A program made the translations under genes and the position numbers. The notes under the pieces were generated by a model. That model was given only the letters and a program-made list of their open reading frames with translations. It was not told the origin of the DNA and searched no databases. From NCBI GenBank assembly GCA_963827155.1, contig CAWGZV010000002.1, forward strand, positions 2,759,294-2,823,293: a stretch of DNA of 64,000 bases, given 5' to 3'. How positions within the stretch are numbered: the stretch's first letter is position 1; each line of letters starts with the position of its first letter. Positions 42,311-49,217 of this stretch are shown here, one piece after another. This stretch comes from an uncultured Chloroflexia bacterium (lineage in GTDB: Bacteria > Chloroflexota > Anaerolineae > Anaerolineales > UBA4823).

Positions 42311-43058
42311 TTAATTCCAATCGATTTTAGCTGGTAGGTCGTAAATCCCCTGCCGGTGGTTCCTTTGAATTTTTAATAGGTCTTGCGCCATCTGAACGGT
42401 ATCTCGGACGAGTGAGAGCTTACTCTCACGATTAAAATACCAGTTGATAGGCAGTTCGACAATCCGGTATTTGCGGAGCCTGGCGATATACAAAATTTCT
42501 ACATCGAAGGACCACCCGCTGAAGGTCAGAACTCGCGAACAAATCCTCGGCGACGTCACTCCGAAAACATTTGAAGCCGCATTGAGTATCATGCAGACCA
42601 GGAAGAGCGAGCATCCGGATCATCAAATTGATGGCTCGACCACCAAAGTGGCGGAATGCAGGCTCATTGTACCGATGAGCGCCAGGGGCTTCTCGTGACG
42701 CGATTGCAAGATCAAAATCGGTCAGCTTCGGCGGCAGAAATAGCGGAATTTCATCGACAGGCATGGAAAGATCCGCGTCACACATAAAGCGATATTTCCC
42801 CCTTGCCTCCCGCATTCCCAACTGAACCGCACGGCCTTTTCCTCTCTGCTCCGCATGGATCGCGCGGACAAATTGCTCTTTAATTGCGAATTCATTCGCG
42901 ATCTCAAGCGTATGGTCTGTGCTCCCATTTTCAACGATCAGCAGCTCGCTGGTGAAATCCTGAGCCTGGAGAAAATCACGGACTCGATCCAGGGTGGCTG
43001 GGAGCCTATTTTCCTCATTGTATGCTGGGATAACGATCGACAAGTATGGGAGCGTCAA
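42311..43058 (-). pseudogene. Family 2 glycosyltransferase (polyprenyl-phosphate hexosyltransferase-like), frameshifted as sequenced
   Basis: ORF 42432..43058 (LSIVIPAYNEE.., CDADL, QCGFKCF) continues as ..SRVLTFSGWSFDVEILYIA..ELPINW (ORF 42311..42592). One extra base at 42538..42539. Confidence 0.85.
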
Positions 43059-43080: not shown

Positions 43081-43902
43081 TCATGTACTGATCACGACTA
43101 CAAAAACCAGCGCCAGAAGGATAATAATATTAACGATCATCAAAAATCCTACAAGCAGCCATTGACGCCGAGTGAACGGCAGCATGCTTAATAGTCGTGG
43201 AACAAACTTAGGCTCTTCACGGCTTATGGTCTCGAGACGGGTCGGCTCGCGGGGAGGTTTGGGGGGAGGAGGTTCCTTTAATGAATATGCATCCCGAATA
43301 TCACCAATCGCGGTGAGGGGATCTTCTTCTTGATAAAACTCTTTCACCAGATTTTGGATTACATCGTTTTCCAGACCTACCGGTTCTGCGAGGACTGTAG
43401 CAATAAAACGAGCCAGTGCATCTATCAGCACAATCCGAGCTGCAGGACGGTTCGTTTCTGCATGCGCTCCCGGATTCGAGAAGAAGACAACCGTATCGAC
43501 TGGCGGCAAGGAAAAATCCTTCGAGGCAAGATAACCCATTAATACTGCAGCTTTTTCAACCACCTCGCTCATTGGGTTTGGCTTAATTATCTTCCACACA
43601 CCGGTTTTCTCATTCAGCTCTTCCCAAGAATTTTCTAAAACCTTAAACACCCCCTTAGCTTCGCTGGTCACGATCATCCAAATTCCGGTTGGACCGATTA
43701 AGATCAGAGGCAACGGCTCGTTAAGTCCTTCGAGATACACATCACTCAGGAGGACAAAACGATTATCGAGAACTTTCTTCAAGCTCTGGATAAAGATTTC
43801 GTCGGCGGCAGATTTCCGGCGGTCAGATTTCAATCGGAGAGAAACACTCTCGCCGGATTTATCCTCTGGATGATGGCTGGATCCGCACTCAAAAATTTTC
43901 AT
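43081..43902 (-). CDS. NERD-like domain protein with C-terminal membrane anchor
   Basis: Core ..PLILIGPTGIWMIVTSEAKGVF.. resembles the NERD (nuclease-related) motif. Pro-rich linker PPPPKPPREP. C-terminal TM WLLVGFLMIVNIIILLALVFVVVI. Confidence 0.55.
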   Translation of the reverse strand: MKIFECGSSHHPEDKSGESVSLRLKSDRRKSAADEIFIQSLKKVLDNRFVLLSDVYLEGLNEPLPLILIGPTGIWMIVTSEAKGVFKVLENSWEELNEKTGVWKIIKPNPMSEVVEKAAVLMGYLASKDFSLPPVDTVVFFSNPGAHAETNRPAARIVLIDALARFIATVLAEPVGLENDVIQNLVKEFYQEEDPLTAIGDIRDAYSLKEPPPPKPPREPTRLETISREEPKFVPRLLSMLPFTRRQWLLVGFLMIVNIIILLALVFVVVIST

Positions 43903-43907
43903 TCGAA

Positions 43908-44219
43908 TCAGATAACTGGGATGTTTTCGAGTTTATCCCGTCCAAAGGTCTTTTCACCGGTGGAAAGATATTCCAGATCTCCATTCGGAATTAATTGAAG
44001 CTTGTTTGTAATCTCGAAAGTGGAGGCTTTCAGCACAATTCGCTGACCGGCAAAAACGTGTTTTCCGGATTTTATTAGACCTACCAAAGTTGGGCGGTCT
44101 AATTTCACCCGGTCTGTATAGGTTTGACCGCGGCGCATGTATGCGCGCACCCATTTCACGTTTCCTTCAAGGTCATAGTGCACAGCTTCGACCACCCCAT
44201 CGATCTTATTCTTTGCCAT
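43908..44219 (-). CDS. Small hypothetical protein (DUF3892-like by eye)
   Basis: 103-aa ORF 5 nt upstream of the NERD-like gene. The pattern ..LIKSGKHVFAG..YLSTGEKTFGRDKLENIP.. recalls DUF3892. Low certainty. Confidence 0.45.
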   Translation of the reverse strand: MAKNKIDGVVEAVHYDLEGNVKWVRAYMRRGQTYTDRVKLDRPTLVGLIKSGKHVFAGQRIVLKASTFEITNKLQLIPNGDLEYLSTGEKTFGRDKLENIPVI

Positions 44220-44306
44220 TGGTCCCCTCCAGAATACTGCACCGGATTAAAGATGCGTAGTGCGCTTTTCTGTAAAAAAAATCGCCCTACGCAACGAATT
44301 TACCTG

Positions 44307-44380
44307 TCGGGGCGGGCGGACTCGAACCGCCGACCCCCGCGTCCCAAACGCGGTGCGCTACCGAACTGCGCTACACCCCG
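44307..44380 (-). tRNA. tRNA-Pro (anticodon UGG)
   Basis: CGGGGTG/CGCCCCG acceptor, anticodon arm CCGCG-TTTGGGA-CGCGG, T-arm GGCGG-TTCGAGT-CCGCC. Confidence 0.9.
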
Positions 44381-45187: not shown

Positions 45188-46288
45188 TCAATATCTTAAC
45201 TGCGCTCCAATTTTACCGAATTGATCGATAAACTGATCCGAGTGAAGGACCTCGACCTCACCTCCCATCCGCATCACCTGGCTTACTGCCATCTCAACCG
45301 CATCCGGAATTTTTTCGAATTTTCCGCCACAGAATGGACAGCTCCCTAAAGGCTGTGAAGTTAGATACCCACAGCTCATGCAGCGCATTCCCGGCTCGCG
45401 ATACCCTTCAAGGATTATCAGAGTCTGGATACGCCCTTGACGCAGGGCATCCATTGTATCCTGCAACCCAATAACCCCTCCCCGTCCCTTGGCGGTATTT
45501 GTAACCACCATTTTGACCAAGTTGTTCTCTCTCTGTTTTTCCGCTTCTTCTCCAATTTCCATGGCTTTTGCGAGAACTTCGTTTTCGCTCGCAAGCATAC
45601 TGATGGGGAAAGAGCCGACAACCAGGCTCTGCCAGGATTTTGGCAGTAATCCCCGGAACATCGCAACGTTGTCATCCGTTCCACCAATGACAATTCTACG
45701 GACTTTTTTTTCGAAGAAGAACCGGGTAACGGTGTCAACCACTTCTCGCATATTCCTTTCAGTGAGCTCTTCAATATATTCGGTTTGCCCAGCGCTGCCG
45801 CCGCGTCTCCCCACTTCTTGCGATCCGCCACCGCGTTTCGTTCTATGTACGCTCTCCCCAAGAATGCCTTGCTGTTCCTGAAGTTCGCCGAGATGGAAAT
45901 GAAACAGCCGACCGCCTTGTTTGTCGACCAGGACAACTCCGTAGCCGCCGAATGAATCGATAAGATCGGCAAGAGGCTTGACATACGGGCGGTCACCCAC
46001 TCTAACCCGGCTTCGGATTGGAATTGCCAGCGGAAAAGCCCGAAAATAGTCCTGCTGAGGACATGAGAAAATCACCACACTCCTTCCAGACCAATCGTGC
46101 TCATGATCAATAAATTGGGTCACCGGATCGCCTTCTTCAGTCAATGCGGCTTCCTTCAGCATGCTGCGCAAACGAAGACGGTGGAACTCAGGAGTGCCCT
46201 CAACAGGATCGGTATTAAGATACACACTGAGGACTGGGTGTTCAGGTTGAAAATGCAATAACTCGTGCATATTTTGATCCGTAATCAT
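45188..46288 (-). CDS. Vms1/ANKZF1-like (VLRF1-type, bacterial eRF1-fold) putative peptidyl-tRNA hydrolase with C-terminal zinc ribbon
   Basis: N-terminus ..HPVLSVYLNTDP.. typical of bacterial aeRF1-like families. Candidate catalytic loop HRTKRGGGSQ (Gln codon at 45818..45820). C-terminal CMSC..CPFC zinc ribbon. SD GAGGAGG. Confidence 0.65.
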   Translation of the reverse strand: MITDQNMHELLHFQPEHPVLSVYLNTDPVEGTPEFHRLRLRSMLKEAALTEEGDPVTQFIDHEHDWSGRSVVIFSCPQQDYFRAFPLAIPIRSRVRVGDRPYVKPLADLIDSFGGYGVVLVDKQGGRLFHFHLGELQEQQGILGESVHRTKRGGGSQEVGRRGGSAGQTEYIEELTERNMREVVDTVTRFFFEKKVRRIVIGGTDDNVAMFRGLLPKSWQSLVVGSFPISMLASENEVLAKAMEIGEEAEKQRENNLVKMVVTNTAKGRGGVIGLQDTMDALRQGRIQTLIILEGYREPGMRCMSCGYLTSQPLGSCPFCGGKFEKIPDAVEMAVSQVMRMGGEVEVLHSDQFIDQFGKIGAQLRY

Positions 46289-46463
46289 TCAATCCTCCTC
46301 ATATAAGATGTGAAAATGATGGCCCCCAGATGATTATAACGTAATCCTATTGTATCTATTTCAAGCTCTCAAAGTCAAGCATCCAGAGCAAGTTTCACAA
46401 ATCTTTAAGCCCAAATTATTAAAACCACCATGGGGCATTGATCCTCCACTTTTAGATATACCA

Positions 46464-46479: not shown

Positions 46480-47652
46480 ATGAAACCATCGAGGGACCGG
46501 GTTTTGCTGGTGGAAAGTGAACCTGAAATCAGCGATTTGATTGCGAGACAGGCTCTTCTCCCGATGGGTTATCAGGTCCACTGCGTGTCGACTGCTTCTG
46601 AAGCGCTCCAAGAAATCAACCATTACTCGCCAGATGTCATCCTGACGAGCCTGAGCATATCCGATCTGAGCGGGAAAGATTTACTGGTGGCGCTTTCATC
46701 ACAGGATATCGAAGCACCGGTGATTGTGATTGCCCGTAAAGGTATGGAAGGAGATCTCGTGCAGGCATTTCGGTTGGGAGCGCACGATTATCTGCTCTGG
46801 CCTGTACGGGAAGCTGAGGTGATATCTGCAGTTGAGCGGGCGCTGAAACAGGTGCGGGCGCAAAGAGATCGCGAGACCTTAGCTCGCCAGCTTAAGCAGA
46901 CCAACCACGAGCTTCAGCAGCGCGTTCGGGAGCTCACCACGATATTTGCTATGGGCAAAGCTGTTACCTCAATCACCCATCAGCCAGAACTGTTCGAAAA
47001 AATCGTGGAGGGGGCTGTATACGTGACTGAAGCAAACGCAGGCTGGCTTCTCTTGCGGGAAGACAGCAGCCATGAATATTACCTCGCTGCTCAGAGAAAC
47101 CTTCCGAAGACGCTGGCAAGCAAACTGAACCAACCCTGGGATGATGGTATAAGTTCGATGGCTGCGATTTCGGGCGAAACGCTTTCGATATCTGGTGAAC
47201 CTTTTGAAAGATTTAAGATCTCTCGGCTGGGAAAATCCGCGCTGGTTGTTCCCATCAAACCAAAGAAAGAAGTCGCCGGTCTGCTGGTTGTCATAAGAAA
47301 AACTGCAAATCCTTTCAGCACAAGTAATCGGACGCTGCTCGAGGCAGTAGCCGACTATGCCTCGATCTCGCTTGTGAATGCAAGCCTCTTCCGCTCACTG
47401 GAGGAACGCGCAAGAGAATTGGAGCAGGAAGCCGATTACACGCTGGAAAGCGACCGTGAAAAGGCCAAAGAGCTAGAAAACTGCATCAAGAAAATTAAAC
47501 CCAGGCTTGAAAAATCTTTAAAATCGATCGATGTTATGATGATGAATGAAGAACAGCGTTTACAAAGCTCTCATAGAGCGGTACTGCGTTCGGTGTCCAC
47601 ACATCTGCGAGATGTTATGGACAGCATAGACTGTGTTCAGATAATTCACTGA
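46480..47652 (+). CDS. Pseudo-receiver (REC-like) / coiled-coil / GAF domain regulator
   Basis: The REC fold is recognisable, but CheY D13, D57, T87 and K109 equivalents read S, S, A and W (LLVESEP; VILTSLS; VIVIARK; YLLWP). Followed by coiled coil and GAF (..AGWLLLRED..VVPIKPKKEVAGLLVV..). Confidence 0.75.
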   Translation: MKPSRDRVLLVESEPEISDLIARQALLPMGYQVHCVSTASEALQEINHYSPDVILTSLSISDLSGKDLLVALSSQDIEAPVIVIARKGMEGDLVQAFRLGAHDYLLWPVREAEVISAVERALKQVRAQRDRETLARQLKQTNHELQQRVRELTTIFAMGKAVTSITHQPELFEKIVEGAVYVTEANAGWLLLREDSSHEYYLAAQRNLPKTLASKLNQPWDDGISSMAAISGETLSISGEPFERFKISRLGKSALVVPIKPKKEVAGLLVVIRKTANPFSTSNRTLLEAVADYASISLVNASLFRSLEERARELEQEADYTLESDREKAKELENCIKKIKPRLEKSLKSIDVMMMNEEQRLQSSHRAVLRSVSTHLRDVMDSIDCVQIIH

Positions 47653-47698
47653 CAAAGATTATTCATGTGGGGATCGGCTACAAGCCTGGTCAGTAAGC

Positions 47699-49217
47699 AT
47701 GCGTGACAAGAAAATTGATATGGCAAACGGACTTGGGATGATTGAACGGATTGGTCGACAGGTGACTTCTAGCCTTGATCTAGACTGTGTGCTTGTGACG
47801 ATTGTCGATGCCATCGTGGAACTGACGGGAGCGGAAGAAGGAAAACTATTTCTTGTTGACGAGACCAGCGGCGAACTTTTTATCCGCGCCAGACGGAATT
47901 TTAAAGAGGACTATGTAAGAACATCCCACCTCAGGGTCCAGGACTCCCTGGTAGAAAAAGTGTTAATAACCGGTAAACCCTGCACCTTTGACTCGCAAAA
48001 CCCGAAGGAAATTGGAACCTCGGACCTCATTCATTCTCAGGTATACATGCCGATCAACTCCAAAGGGCGGGTGATGGGTGTCTTAGGAGCAGACAACCTT
48101 CCGAGCGGAAAGCCGCTCGCTGATAACGACGTGTTAATGCTAGCTGCTCTGGCAGACTATGCTGCAATTGGGGTAGAAAACGCACGTCTGTATGCTCATT
48201 CCGAAGCGGAACGAGACAAGCTCACAGCAATTCTTAAGGGAATAGAAGATGGAGTAGTGGTAATCGATAACGATGATCGACTTGTCTTGATAAACAGAAA
48301 GGCGATTGAAACCCTCGAAATTCAAGAAAAGAATCTGAATTGGAACCAGATTCCGCGAGCTGGTTCGGCATCCAGAACTCCAGGAAGTTCTGCAGCGTGA
48401 TTCTTTGGTCTCCCCAACCCGGCTCGAGATCGCACTCAATAATGGACGAGTAATGAATACCCAGATCTCACCGATTGAAGGGGTTGGGAATGTGGTCATC
48501 ATGCAAGACATTACCCATCTCAAGGAACTTGAACGGATTAAATCCGATTTTGTCAATACCGTATCGCACGATCTTCGCTCTCCATTGACGGCGATCTTAG
48601 GGTATATCGAGCTGATCGATCGGGTTGGACCGGTTAACAGTCAGCAGAAGGAATTTATCCAACGTGTCCAATCCAGCGTCCACAGCATCACAGCGCTGAT
48701 CAACGATCTGCTGGATTTAGGCCGAATCGAAGCTGGGTTCGATATCCAAAAAGATATCATTTCACTGGATTCGATTATCCATTATTCAATTGACAGTCTG
48801 AAGGGACGGACATTATCTAAAGGACAGCAATTAGAGATTATGATCAGCAACCCCCTTCCGCACTTATTGGGAAATCCAATCCGTCTGCGCCAGATGGTCA
48901 CAAATCTGCTAGCAAATGCAATCAAATATACCGAAACTGGCGGCTTGCTGAAAATTTCAGCACATGCGGAGGCCGGGCAGATAATCCTGCAGATATCTGA
49001 TAACGGGCCAGGGATACCGGATGTTGATCTACCTTTTATCTTCGATAAATTCTATCGGGCGAGCAACGTCCCCGAAAACACGTCTGGATCTGGTTTAGGA
49101 CTAGCAATTGTCAAGTCGATAGTGGAGAACCACAATGGTCGGATCTGGGTTGATTCAGCAATAGGACATGGGACAACTTTCACTGTGGTTCTGCCTACGG
49201 TCGACAAAAAAATGTGA
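47699..49217 (+). pseudogene. GAF-PAS sensor histidine kinase, frameshifted as sequenced
   Basis: ORF 47699..48400 (GAF, start of PAS) and ORF 48405..49217 (H-box SHDLRSPL, N-box LLANAIKYT, DNGPGI, GSGLGLAI). Frames rejoin (..EKNL|IGTRFRELVRHPELQEVL..) by removing one A at 48338..48339. Confidence 0.88.

What the first reader, a model, noticed from the sequence alone, without database searches (positions are those of the whole stretch)
45188..46288. Bacterial Vms1/VLRF1-like eRF1-fold protein with GGSQ loop and C-terminal zinc ribbon
Seen in sequence:
- A 366-aa protein with the bacterial aeRF1-like N-terminus (HPVLSVYLNTDP).
- A loop HRTKRGGGSQ, which resembles the Gln-containing catalytic loop of eukaryotic Vms1/ANKZF1 peptidyl-tRNA hydrolases and the GGQ of release factors.
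- A CxxC...CxxC ribbon at the C-terminus.

Established knowledge: eRF1-fold homologues have been catalogued computationally in Actinobacteria and Chloroflexi, but I know of no experimental function in bacteria.

The gene stands alone, with its own SD and promoter-like TATAAT. It is convergent with a SAM methyltransferase and divergent from a pseudo-receiver regulator. It may be a non-canonical ribosome-rescue or nascent-chain release factor.
Basis: partly seen in the sequence, partly recalled or inferred. Interest (0 to 1): 0.55.

Follow-up and report, generated by a model that had tools for sequence, protein, structure and literature searches.

The report
Heat-shock-linked bacterial eRF1-like ribosome factor
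This gene encodes a bacterial copy of the archaeal/eukaryotic release-factor fold, from the already catalogued family baeRF-1 family 10 and related to the ribosome hibernation factor Balon; across its relatives it sits in heat-shock chaperone operons, and its supposed catalytic glutamine is not reliably conserved.

Summary

**What it is.** It is a firm member of Pfam baeRF_family10 (E=2.5e-40) and has an eRF1 C-domain carrying a four-Cys zinc ribbon. Its closest characterised relatives, by sequence and by fold, are the Balon hibernation factors (Msmeg1130: Foldseek E=1e-22) and archaeal aRF1. It is not a Vms1/VLRF1 family member.

**The loop.** The loop is under strong constraint: 23 residues in 80/81 orthologues, with K151, G153, G154 and S156 invariant. 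The position equivalent to the catalytic Gln of GGQ is Gly or Ala. The shifted Gln (GGxSQ) is present in only 58/81 Anaerolineae orthologues and 43/115 diverse family members.

**New context evidence.**
- In 57/77 orthologous loci the gene follows DnaJ and/or HtrA behind one conserved promoter. The window keeps that promoter (46349-46379) but has lost DnaJ/HtrA.
- Short-loop family members lie in DnaJ-HspR-like-baeRF10-ClpB clusters (37/48 evaluable loci upstream, 37/48 downstream).

**Best reading.** It is a heat-shock-regulon factor for the ribosomal A site, more likely Balon-like parking than canonical release. Hydrolase activity is not excluded.

**Verdict.** A known kind, never tested experimentally, of moderate interest.

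The parts
45188..46288 (-). CDS of the 366-aa baeRF-1 family 10 protein (stop codon 45188-45190)
   Evidence: ORF listing. Pfam PF18854 E=2.5e-40. 2576 homologues.
45989..46288 (-). N-terminal domain (aa 1-100). In aeRF1 and Balon this is the decoding-centre-binding domain. It has no NIKS motif. The YLNTDP loop is shared with Msmeg1130 (YFNADP).
   Evidence: AF2 model pLDDT 73-90. HMMER alignment to 8v9j_z. The loop between the two helices (aa 47-53) is variable in A1.
45551..45988 (-). Middle (RNase-H-fold, 'release factor') domain, aa 101-246
   Evidence: The Pfam baeRF_family10 match covers residues 101-246.
45782..45850 (-). Gly/Arg-rich loop, aa 147-169 (VHRTKRGGGSQEVGRRGGSAGQT). It corresponds to the GGQ loop of aeRF1.
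   Evidence: Predicted disordered, pLDDT<50 for 150-167. Length is 23 in 80/81 orthologues. Mean conservation is 0.84, higher than the N and C domains.
45818..45832 (-). GGGSQ (aa 153-157). G153, G154 and S156 are invariant. G155 sits at the position of the catalytic Gln of eRF1. Q157 is the shifted Gln.
   Evidence: Conservation counts. HMMER alignment to eRF1 8ip8: RGGQSA against rGGgsq.
45785..45808 (-). Second RRGGSAGQ motif (aa 161-168). It is part of an insertion of about 8-11 residues restricted to the long-loop members (window-type orthologues and their nearer relatives).
   Evidence: Absent from short-loop family members.
45191..45550 (-). C-terminal eRF1_3/Pelota-type domain (aa 247-366)
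   Evidence: Pfam PF03465 at 28.4 bits against a cutoff of 25.8. Foldseek hits to aRF1/eRF1 C-domains 3ir9 and 5dmr.
45329..45382 (-). Four-Cys zinc ribbon inserted in the C domain (C303, C306, C317, C320)
   Evidence: Invariant in 81 orthologues and about 95% conserved in 114 diverse representatives. pLDDT 86-90. Same insertion site as the aRF1 ribbon (4af1 alignment; PMC6514570).
46294..46300 (-). Shine-Dalgarno GAGGAGG, 5 nt upstream of the ATG
   Evidence: Sequence. AGGAG is invariant in alignment A2.
46349..46379 (-). Conserved sigma-70-like promoter CTTGACT-N17/18-ATACAAT. It is the promoter of the ancestral DnaJ(-HtrA)-baeRF10 unit.
   Evidence: Promoter scan, 10/12 match. The motif occurs once in the whole 64-kb window. 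In 908 kb of orthologous loci it occurs 67 times on the gene strand and 2 times on the other, always upstream of the unit. Footprint alignment.

Best explanation
**What it is.** The gene encodes a three-domain tRNA-mimic of the archaeal/eukaryotic release-factor fold. It belongs to the bacterial clade baeRF-1, Pfam family 10, the same superfamily as the ribosome hibernation factor Balon. It is a member of a heat-shock/proteostasis regulon.

**Proposed mechanism.**
1. Under proteotoxic stress the conserved promoter drives its synthesis. In most relatives DnaJ, HtrA or ClpB are made with it.
2. The protein enters the ribosomal A site, probably escorted by EF-Tu through its C domain, which carries a zinc ribbon.
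3. Its N domain touches the decoding centre without reading a stop codon.
4. Its rigidly conserved Gly/Arg-rich TKRGG[G/A]S loop reaches towards the peptidyl-transferase centre.

**Most likely outcome.** Reversible occupation (parking and protection) of ribosomes, as for Balon, rather than canonical GGQ-catalysed peptide release.

**Shown here.** Family membership, fold, conservation pattern, operon association and the promoter.

**Inferred.** Heat induction, A-site binding, EF-Tu delivery, the loop reaching the peptidyl-transferase centre, and the non-catalytic outcome.
For: **Family and fold.**
- Pfam baeRF_family10, E=2.5e-40.
- NCBIfam best hits are the three Balon-type 'ribosome hibernation factor' models (MSMEG_1130 family: 103 bits, E=1.5e-29).
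- PDB sequence search: best hit Balon Msmeg1130.
- Foldseek: Msmeg1130 at E=1.3e-22 and TM 0.67, ahead of aRF1, P. urativorans Balon and eRF1, with Pelota lower.

**Against canonical catalysis.**
- eRF1 Q185 aligns to G155, which is G 61, A 18, S 2 of 81.
- The shifted Q157 is Gln in 58/81 orthologues, and 11/81 have no Gln in the loop at all, including cultured Thermanaerothrix solaris.
- Q157 is Gln in 43/115 across the family.
- Every known release-hydrolase family keeps its Gln (PMC6514570).

**Stress association.**
- 57/77 Anaerolineae orthologue loci have DnaJ and/or HtrA directly upstream on the same strand, behind one conserved promoter that the window retains.
- In short-loop family members, 37/48 evaluable loci have DnaJ, HspR-like MerR or HtrA upstream, and 37/48 have ClpB-type Hsp100 downstream.
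- Other contexts include BON/OsmY-like proteins, ECF sigma factors and Archease-RtcB.
- These are the neighbour classes reported for Balon homologues (PMC10901736).
Against: - The loop is far more constrained than in characterised Balon proteins. It has fixed length, and K151, G153, G154 and S156 are invariant. Burroughs & Aravind treat a conserved loop Gln together with a narrowly constrained loop length as the mark of active hydrolases, and single out family 10 as a likely active one.
- The GG pair is what lets release factors enter the catalytic centre. As I recall the release-factor literature (not checked here), the Gln side chain can be replaced by small residues in bacterial RF2 without abolishing hydrolysis in vitro. 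Ser, Ala or Thr at position 157 therefore does not exclude catalysis.
- The scores fall far below the NCBIfam Balon equivalog cutoffs (103 against 480).
- The C domain carries a zinc ribbon where Balon has a beta-hairpin.
- The window itself contains no hpf/raiA-type or chaperone neighbour.
- No experiment exists for any family 10 member.
Confidence: 0.45

Rival explanations
1. It is an active, non-canonical peptidyl-tRNA hydrolase, that is, a release or rescue factor. This is the prediction of Burroughs & Aravind for family 10 and the idea of the first reader. On this view it is delivered to stalled 70S ribosomes during heat stress, and the GG[G/A]S(Q) loop enters the peptidyl-transferase centre and triggers hydrolysis. 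The released chains are handled by the co-encoded DnaJ, ClpB or HtrA.
For: - The GG pair and S156 (equivalent to the Ser of eRF1 GGQS) are invariant, and loop length is fixed.
- The loop is among the most conserved parts of the protein although predicted disordered.
- The window protein fits the GGxSQ/GxuQ motifs of VLRF-1.
- Family 10 retains the most aRF1-like architecture, including the zinc ribbon.
- Short-loop members also pass the Pfam eRF1_2 and acVLRF1 cutoffs.
- Position 157 is substituted only by Ser, Ala, Thr or Met, and never by Pro.
- Chaperone and protease operon partners fit nascent-chain quality control.
Against: - No Gln sits at the canonical position: Gly or Ala in the window-type orthologues, Trp in short-loop members.
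- The shifted Gln is lost in 28% of orthologues, in a stable clade-level GGAS[S/A/T] state, while the rest of the protein stays conserved.
- It is Gln in only 37% across the family.
- There is no NIKS-like or other conserved codon- or empty-channel-sensing element in the N domain.
- All three baeRF-1 proteins tested so far are non-catalytic.
Confidence: 0.3
2. It acts like eukaryotic Vms1/ANKZF1 on large-subunit-peptidyl-tRNA complexes that arise when ribosomes fall apart in the heat. It would free the chain by cutting the tRNA 3' end or hydrolysing the ester bond on the 50S subunit alone.
For: - The GxuQ/GGxSQ-type loop and the longer loop are as described for VLRF-1.
- The heat-shock operon context fits.
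- NCBI names a 42%-identical relative 'Vms1/Ankzf1 family peptidyl-tRNA hydrolase'.
Against: - The window protein has no VLRF1 or acVLRF1 profile hit.
- No Vms1 structure is among the 50 listed fold matches.
- It has the full three-domain tRNA-mimic architecture, with decoding-centre and GTPase-binding domains that VLRF-1 families lack. This argues for action on 70S ribosomes.
- The NCBI name is explained by weak secondary acVLRF1 hits in short-loop members only.
Confidence: 0.07
3. It no longer acts on the ribosome. It is, for example, a chaperone co-factor or regulator that merely keeps the fold.
For: Only the tight linkage to DnaJ, HspR and ClpB, with no translation genes as regular partners.
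Against: - All three ribosome-binding domains are retained and conserved at a level like neighbouring housekeeping genes: about 60% median identity, comparable to RNase HII, EndoIII and HisK in the same loci.
- The rRNA-facing loop and the following helix (R178, N179 invariant) are the best-conserved parts.
- Every characterised member of the superfamily binds the A site.
Confidence: 0.05

Closest known systems
Balon ribosome hibernation factors (P. urativorans Balon, M. smegmatis Msmeg1130, M. tuberculosis Rv2629; Helena-Bueno et al. 2024, PMC10901736)
   Same: - Same superfamily and three-domain aeRF1-like fold, and the best sequence and structure match.
- Similar length (366 aa).
- No NIKS motif and no strict GGQ.
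- A shared N-domain Y-[LF]-N-x-D-P loop with Msmeg1130.
- The same kinds of stress-gene neighbours across the family: DnaJ, sigma factors, OsmY/BON and RtcB.
   Different: - Only about 19% identity, far below the NCBIfam equivalog cutoffs.
- It keeps an invariant GG pair and a length-fixed, highly conserved loop where Balon has a variable 'lasso' loop.
- It keeps a four-Cys zinc ribbon where Balon has the beta-hairpin that contacts EF-Tu.
- It appears vertically inherited, with conserved synteny, in Anaerolineae rather than patchy. I found one copy per fetched locus, but copy number per genome was not tested.
Archaeal/eukaryotic class-1 release factor aRF1/eRF1
   Same: - Same three domains (TIGR03676 match E=6e-14; Foldseek 4af1 E=1.6e-19).
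- The loop is colinear with KKHGRGGQSA, sharing the GG pair and the following Ser.
- The zinc ribbon lies at the same site of the C domain as in aRF1 (PMC6514570).
   Different: - Gly or Ala replaces the catalytic Gln.
- There is an insertion of about 8-11 residues with a second RRGG motif.
- There are no NIKS, YxCxxxF or GTS stop-codon motifs.
- The score is far below the family cutoff (51.7 against 234.7).
VLRF-1 clade (Vms1/ANKZF1, acVLRF1 Pfam PF18859)
   Same: - Loop motif GG-x-S-Q / G-x-u-Q.
- Short-loop family-10 relatives give secondary acVLRF1 hits of 27-49 bits.
   Different: - The window protein has no hit.
- VLRF-1 families lack the C-terminal Pelota-type domain and/or the N domain. 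This protein has both, plus the ribbon.
- No Vms1 structure is among the 50 listed fold matches.
Pelota/Dom34 (non-catalytic rescue factor)
   Same: An A-site tRNA mimic of the same superfamily. Pelota has no catalytic Gln, and here the shifted Gln is not reliably kept. Foldseek E of 1e-9 to 1e-5.
   Different: A much weaker structural match. Pelota has a poorly conserved loop without GG, whereas this loop is highly conserved.

Membership tests
Pfam PF18854 baeRF_family10 (baeRF-1 clade of Burroughs & Aravind 2019) | Profile match above the curated gathering score | tested here: met
   138.5 bits against a cutoff of 27.1, E=2.5e-40, residues 101-246 covering model positions 1-142 of 143. Ten diverse relatives all hit at E of 1e-31 to 1e-41.
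Pfam PF18854 baeRF_family10 (baeRF-1 clade of Burroughs & Aravind 2019) | Full three-domain aeRF1 architecture with an insert in the C (Pelota-type) domain | tested here: met
   AF2 model. eRF1_3 at 28.4 bits against a cutoff of 25.8. Four-Cys ribbon invariant.
Pfam PF18854 baeRF_family10 (baeRF-1 clade of Burroughs & Aravind 2019) | 'Well-conserved glutamine' in the catalytic loop, as stated in the 2019 paper | tested here: inconclusive
   Q157 is present in the window protein but in only 58/81 orthologues and 43/115 representatives. In short-loop members the near-invariant Gln residues are those before the GG pair and at the helix start.
Balon-type ribosome hibernation factors (NCBIfam NF052288, NF052289, NF052287) | Score at or above the equivalog cutoff | tested here: not met
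   103.2 against 480, 60.7 against 320, and 58 against 330.
Balon-type ribosome hibernation factors (NCBIfam NF052288, NF052289, NF052287) | aeRF1-like three-domain fold, with Balon as nearest solved structure | tested here: met
   Foldseek 8v9l_z E=1.3e-22, TM 0.67. 8rdw_B, 8rd8_B and 8rdv_B at E about 1e-19. 8v9k_z at E=4e-16.
Balon-type ribosome hibernation factors (NCBIfam NF052288, NF052289, NF052287) | Absence of the NIKS and GGQ motifs | tested here: inconclusive
   There is no NIKS and no strict GGQ, since G155 sits at the Gln position. Unlike Balon, however, it has an invariant GG pair and a shifted Gln in most orthologues.
Balon-type ribosome hibernation factors (NCBIfam NF052288, NF052289, NF052287) | HP motif (N-terminal insertion), lasso loop around A2602, and bL27 trap | not testable with these tools
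   The papers give no residue numbers in the held text, and no ribosome complex can be modelled here. Msmeg1130 has N-domain insertions that this protein lacks.
Balon-type ribosome hibernation factors (NCBIfam NF052288, NF052289, NF052287) | Beta-hairpin insertion in the C domain that contacts EF-Tu | tested here: not met
   A four-Cys zinc ribbon occupies that site. The Msmeg1130 alignment stops before it.
Balon-type ribosome hibernation factors (NCBIfam NF052288, NF052289, NF052287) | Location in stress-response gene clusters | tested here: met
   Met for the family and for most orthologues. In this window only the operon promoter remains.
Classical aRF1/eRF1 (TIGR03676) | Score above cutoff, a GGQ motif, and NIKS-type stop-codon motifs | tested here: not met
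   51.7 against 234.7 bits. GG-G/A in place of GGQ. No NIKS.
VLRF-1 clade (Vms1/ANKZF1; Pfam acVLRF1 PF18859) | Profile match | tested here: not met
   No VLRF1 or acVLRF1 hit at E<=1 for the window protein. There are secondary hits only in short-loop relatives.
VLRF-1 clade (Vms1/ANKZF1; Pfam acVLRF1 PF18859) | GGxSQ / GxuQ loop motif with conserved Gln | tested here: inconclusive
   The motif is present in the window protein (GGGSQ), but Gln is conserved in only 72% of orthologues.
VLRF-1 clade (Vms1/ANKZF1; Pfam acVLRF1 PF18859) | Domain architecture lacking the Pelota-type C domain and/or the N domain | tested here: not met
   Both flanking domains are present, contrary to the description in PMC6514570.

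The most novel reading that the evidence does not exclude
Family 10 could be a true bacterial aeRF1-type nascent-chain release factor. On this reading it is made with DnaJ, HtrA or ClpB during heat shock. It is delivered by EF-Tu through its ancestral zinc-ribbon C domain. It then frees peptides from heat-stalled ribosomes using a GG-x-S loop that works without the canonical glutamine. That would make it a bacterial counterpart of eukaryotic ribosome-associated quality control, and the living intermediate between aRF1 and Balon.
Probability: 0.28. Interest if true: 0.8.

Novelty: new member of a known kind. Interest (0 to 1): 0.45.

Why it matters
Bacteria were long thought to lack the archaeal/eukaryotic release-factor fold. 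In 2024 one branch, Balon, was shown to be a widespread hibernation factor that has lost the catalytic motifs.

Family 10 has kept the most ancestral features: the GG loop, the following Ser and the zinc ribbon. It was flagged in 2019 as possibly still catalytic, but nobody has tested it.

This analysis sharpens that open question in three ways:
- The glutamine thought to mark activity is dispensable in evolution, whereas GG-x-S and the loop length are not.
- The family is embedded in DnaJ/HspR/ClpB/HtrA heat-shock operons.
- Natural GGGSQ and GGAS[S/A/T] variants exist that could be compared directly.

Either outcome would say how a release factor evolved into a hibernation factor. The protein could be a hydrolase that works without its Gln, or a heat-shock parking factor that plugs the catalytic centre.

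The gene itself is an ordinary orthologue of a catalogued family.

Tried and rejected
1. **RNA thermometer in the 5' leader.** I tested whether AUCAUUUUC pairs with the SD. The fold is no better than shuffles (z=+0.86) and is not conserved. Rejected.
2. **Known heat-shock operators.** There is no CIRCE and no convincing HAIR upstream of the window gene or of the DnaJ units. There are 0 HAIR hits in the 86 additional family-10 loci scanned (L083-L168, mostly short-loop), against 0.7 expected. I make no claim about the regulator.
3. **Neighbouring SAM methyltransferase as a PrmC-like Gln methylase.** All 16 loci where it is adjacent have Q157. However, adjacency is confined to the closest relatives, it is a generic Methyltransf_25 protein without an NPPY motif, and it is convergent rather than co-transcribed. 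I treat this as synteny, not function.
4. **Q168 as a back-up Gln.** There is no compensation: both Gln residues are absent in 11/81 orthologues, against about 7 expected.
5. **REC-GAF/histidine kinase as regulator.** The synteny is conserved, but the REC-GAF protein has no DNA-binding domain, and in most genomes DnaJ(-HtrA) lies between it and the baeRF gene. No link is inferred.
6. **Look-ups that gave nothing.**
   - Exact look-up of the window protein's contig.
   - Balon paper supplements for Chloroflexi entries.
   - Rfam, which found only three tRNAs.
   - The diverse alignment A3, which was too degenerate for a metagenome scan, so A4 was used.
7. **DnaJ, HtrA or Clp elsewhere in the window.** None found.
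Full report
**Observation.** The window has a single 366-aa ATG ORF at 45188-46288 on the minus strand.
- A strong SD (GAGGAGG) precedes the ATG.
- The gene is convergent with a class I SAM methyltransferase and divergent from a REC-GAF protein.
- It is a real, strongly conserved gene. There are 2576 homologues at E<=1e-5, and the closest 120 are nearly all exactly 366 aa and 61-80% identical.
- A scan of one genome per species found 330 genomes with a relative. The best 80 are all Chloroflexota, nearly all labelled Anaerolineae/Anaerolineales, including cultured Thermanaerothrix solaris.

**What it is.**
- Pfam places the middle domain in baeRF_family10 (138.5 bits against a cutoff of 27.1, E=2.5e-40) and the C-terminal part in eRF1_3 (above cutoff). 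No VLRF1 or acVLRF1 model matches at E<=1.
- NCBIfam's best hits are the three 'ribosome hibernation factor' (Balon) equivalogs and aRF1/eRF1. All are significant but far below their curated cutoffs.
- The best solved-structure relative by sequence is Balon Msmeg1130.
- An AlphaFold2 model has mean pLDDT 78.5, and the loop at 150-167 is predicted disordered.
- The model matches Msmeg1130 best (E=1.3e-22, TM 0.67). Next come archaeal aRF1, P. urativorans Balon, eRF1 and Rv2629. Pelota/Dom34 rank lower. No Vms1/ANKZF1 structure is among the 50 listed matches.
- The protein is therefore a member of the bacterial aeRF1 clade defined by Burroughs & Aravind (PMC6514570). It is related to Balon (PMC10901736) but is not an equivalog of it.
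Balon, Msmeg1130 and Rv2629 bind the A site with EF-Tu and act as hibernation factors.

[quoted passage not shown] They assign the GGxSQ motif to the a/acVLRF-1 families and GxuQ to e/bVLRF-1. I tested this on much larger samples.
- *81 species-level orthologues.* The loop (aa 147-169) has 23 residues in 80 of them. K151, G153, G154 and S156 are invariant. The loop is more conserved (0.84) than the N or C domains (about 0.70).
- *The flagged Gln.* Q157 is Gln in only 58/81 (otherwise S 12, A 6, T 4, M 1). Q168 is Gln in 56/81. Eleven orthologues have neither.
- *Two states.* The loss is not sporadic decay. There are two stable states, GGGSQ (55) and GGAS[S/A/T] (17), with coupled changes at positions 155 and 157 (Fisher 7e-10, not corrected for phylogeny).
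- *114 diverse representatives (50%-identity clusters).* All ten that I scanned are family 10. The four ribbon cysteines are about 95% conserved and the GG pair 75-85%, but Gln at position 157 is only 37%.
- *Short-loop members.* Most distant members have a shorter loop, K-R-H-K-Q-G-G-W-[SA]-x-x-R-x-Q-R-H. This is gaplessly colinear with eRF1 K-K-H-G-R-G-G-Q-S-A-L-R-F-A-R.
- *Positional equivalence.* HMMER aligns the window-type loop to eRF1 in the same register. The position of the catalytic Gln of eRF1 is therefore Trp in short-loop members and Gly/Ala (G155) in the window type. Invariant S156 corresponds to the Ser of GGQS. Q157 lies two residues downstream of the position of eRF1 Q185.
- *The second motif.* GRRGGxAGQ belongs to an insertion of about 8-11 residues found only in the long-loop group. 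I infer an internal duplication of the first motif, but did not test this.
- *Conclusion on the loop.* There is no canonical GGQ. The Vms1-like motif resemblance is real, but its Gln is evolutionarily dispensable, whereas GG-x-S and the loop length are not.

**The zinc ribbon.** The four-Cys ribbon is inserted at the site where aRF1 has its ribbon (4af1 alignment). According to PMC6514570, most baeRF-1 families have only a two-strand remnant there. That remnant is most likely the beta-hairpin through which Balon touches EF-Tu. Family 10 thus keeps the ancestral state. Delivery by EF-Tu is an inference.

**Genomic context: the main new evidence.** In this window the gene looks solitary. Among 77 orthologous loci with enough upstream sequence, the arrangements are:

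| Arrangement | Loci |
|---|---|
| DnaJ-HtrA-baeRF10 | 28 |
| DnaJ-baeRF10 | 24 |
| HtrA-baeRF10 | 5 |
| REC-GAF divergent from baeRF10, as in the window (this group includes its nearest relatives) | 17 |
| Other | 3 |

- In the first three arrangements all genes are on one strand. Gaps to the nearest upstream gene are about 10-370 bp, mostly under 200 bp.
- The DnaJ is a Zn-finger-less, CbpA-like J-protein, and the protease is a Do/HtrA family member with a lipoprotein-type signal peptide.
- One promoter-like block, CTTGAC-N16-20-A[TG]ANAAT, occurs 67 times on the gene strand and twice on the other strand in 908 kb. There is one per locus, always upstream of the first gene of the unit: 52-286 nt, about 1.0-1.5 kb, or about 2.2-2.5 kb before the baeRF gene, depending on architecture.
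- In the whole 64-kb window the block occurs once, at 46349-46379, directly upstream of this gene.
- The window lineage therefore lost DnaJ/HtrA from the locus and kept the operon promoter. No DnaJ, HtrA or Clp homologue occurs anywhere in the window.
- A 43%-identical outgroup has the same HK/REC-GAF | DnaJ-HtrA-baeRF10 order, which supports this arrangement as ancestral.

**Context of the short-loop members.** I scanned metagenomes with a short-loop alignment (251 relatives found, 80 loci kept).
- 37/48 evaluable loci have DnaJ, a MerR-type gene and/or HtrA upstream on the same strand. The MerR-type gene's best match is HspR (100.4 bits against a cutoff of 105).
- 37/48 have a Clp/Hsp100 gene immediately downstream. 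One example passes the ClpB equivalog cutoff.
- Other contexts include a sigma-like gene plus BON/OsmY-like proteins in Dehalococcoidia, ECF sigma/anti-sigma pairs, and Archease-RtcB.
- The Balon paper lists these same neighbour classes for 'Balon homologues'.
- I found no paper describing or testing family 10 or this operon specifically.

**Mechanism.**
- *Shown.* Family, fold, conservation pattern, operon and promoter association.
- *Inferred from the family.* A-site binding as a tRNA mimic, EF-Tu delivery through the C domain, and approach of the loop to the peptidyl-transferase centre.
- *Best reading (0.45).* I rate a Balon-like, non-canonical role as most likely: stress-induced occupation and protection of ribosomes. 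The canonical Gln position is not Gln. The shifted Gln is lost in whole clades without decay of the protein. The nearest characterised relatives are hibernation factors. The N domain has no conserved codon-reading element.
- *Main rival (0.30).* Retained hydrolase or rescue activity. It is favoured by the invariant GG-x-S, the fixed loop length and the aRF1-like architecture. It is not excluded by the Gln data because, as I recall the literature, the RF2 Gln side chain can be replaced by small residues in vitro.
- *Other rivals.* A Vms1-like action on 50S complexes (0.07) is disfavoured by the full three-domain architecture. A non-ribosomal role (0.05) is disfavoured by conservation of all ribosome-facing parts.

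**Novelty and score.** The gene is an ordinary orthologue of a family catalogued in Pfam and discussed in 2019, within a superfamily characterised in 2024. It is a new member of a known kind.
- The added value is the revised view of the 'catalytic' Gln, the long-loop subtype with a second GG motif, and the family-wide embedding in DnaJ/HspR/ClpB/HtrA units with a conserved promoter.
- Because family 10 is the best candidate for testing whether any bacterial aeRF1 homologue is still catalytic, and natural Gln-plus and Gln-minus variants exist, interest is moderate (0.45).

**Dead ends.**
- No RNA thermometer.
- No CIRCE or HAIR operators.
- The methyltransferase-Gln link is confounded by phylogeny.
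- Rfam found only tRNAs.

Noticed in passing
window 47672-49217 (+): The GAF-PAS-HisKA-HATPase histidine kinase next to the REC-GAF gene is split into two ORFs (47699-48400 and 48405-49217). A frame change lies at about 48331-48342. Orthologues have one ORF of about 641 aa. This is either a pseudogene or an assembly indel.
   Followed up: partly
window 42311-43058 (-): The family 2 glycosyltransferase is also frameshifted, at about 42522-42529, relative to the intact 270-aa orthologue in L008. Two frameshifts within 7 kb suggest indel errors in the assembly rather than biology. The baeRF10 ORF is intact.
   Followed up: partly
L013-L080, about 15 nt upstream of the -35 of the DnaJ-unit promoter; degenerate copy in window at about 46395-46415 (-): A second conserved element, GTTAGAAT(T)nTATAA, precedes the conserved promoter in most DnaJ-first loci. 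A conserved GGGG lies about 25 nt downstream of the -10 in window-type leaders. Either could be a regulator site or an UP-like element. It is neither CIRCE nor HAIR.
   Followed up: partly
L005, L006, L007, L008, L012 (and a 5-codon version in L010), between the promoter and the baeRF10 start: Some window-type orthologue loci carry a short upstream ORF with its own SD, starting MERF... It lies between the conserved promoter and the baeRF10 gene. It is absent from the window.
   Followed up: no
orthologue loci L038, L042, L049, L051, L053, L056, L060, L061, L065, L066, L070-L072, L076-L079: A coherent loop variant, TKRGGAS[S/A/T], replaces TKRGGGSQ in a set of Anaerolineae that includes Thermanaerothrix solaris. 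A155 and loss of Q157 are coupled. These are natural 'Gln-minus' versions suitable for comparison.
   Followed up: yes
protein P0292 (NCBI MEJ2554651.1) and other short-loop relatives: NCBI's pipeline names a 42%-identical family-10 relative 'Vms1/Ankzf1 family peptidyl-tRNA hydrolase', and JGI names many 'peptide chain release factor subunit 1 (eRF1)'. Both names are probably transferred from weak or secondary profile hits (acVLRF1 at 27-49 bits against baeRF10 at about 108-140 bits). Neither rests on any experiment I could find.
   Followed up: yes
window 46480-47652 (+): By inspection, the receiver domain of the REC-GAF neighbour has Ser at the phospho-acceptor Asp position, Glu-Ser for the acidic pair, and Trp for the conserved Lys. 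It is likely a pseudo-receiver. The REC-GAF/HK pair is syntenic with the baeRF10 unit across Anaerolineae.
   Followed up: partly
window 43081-44380 (-): Three features lie just beyond the methyltransferase. One is a NERD-domain protein with a C-terminal transmembrane segment (43081-43902). The second is a conserved 103-aa protein with no Pfam match (43908-44219, found in 33/80 loci). The third is tRNA-Pro(TGG) at 44306-44380.
   Followed up: no
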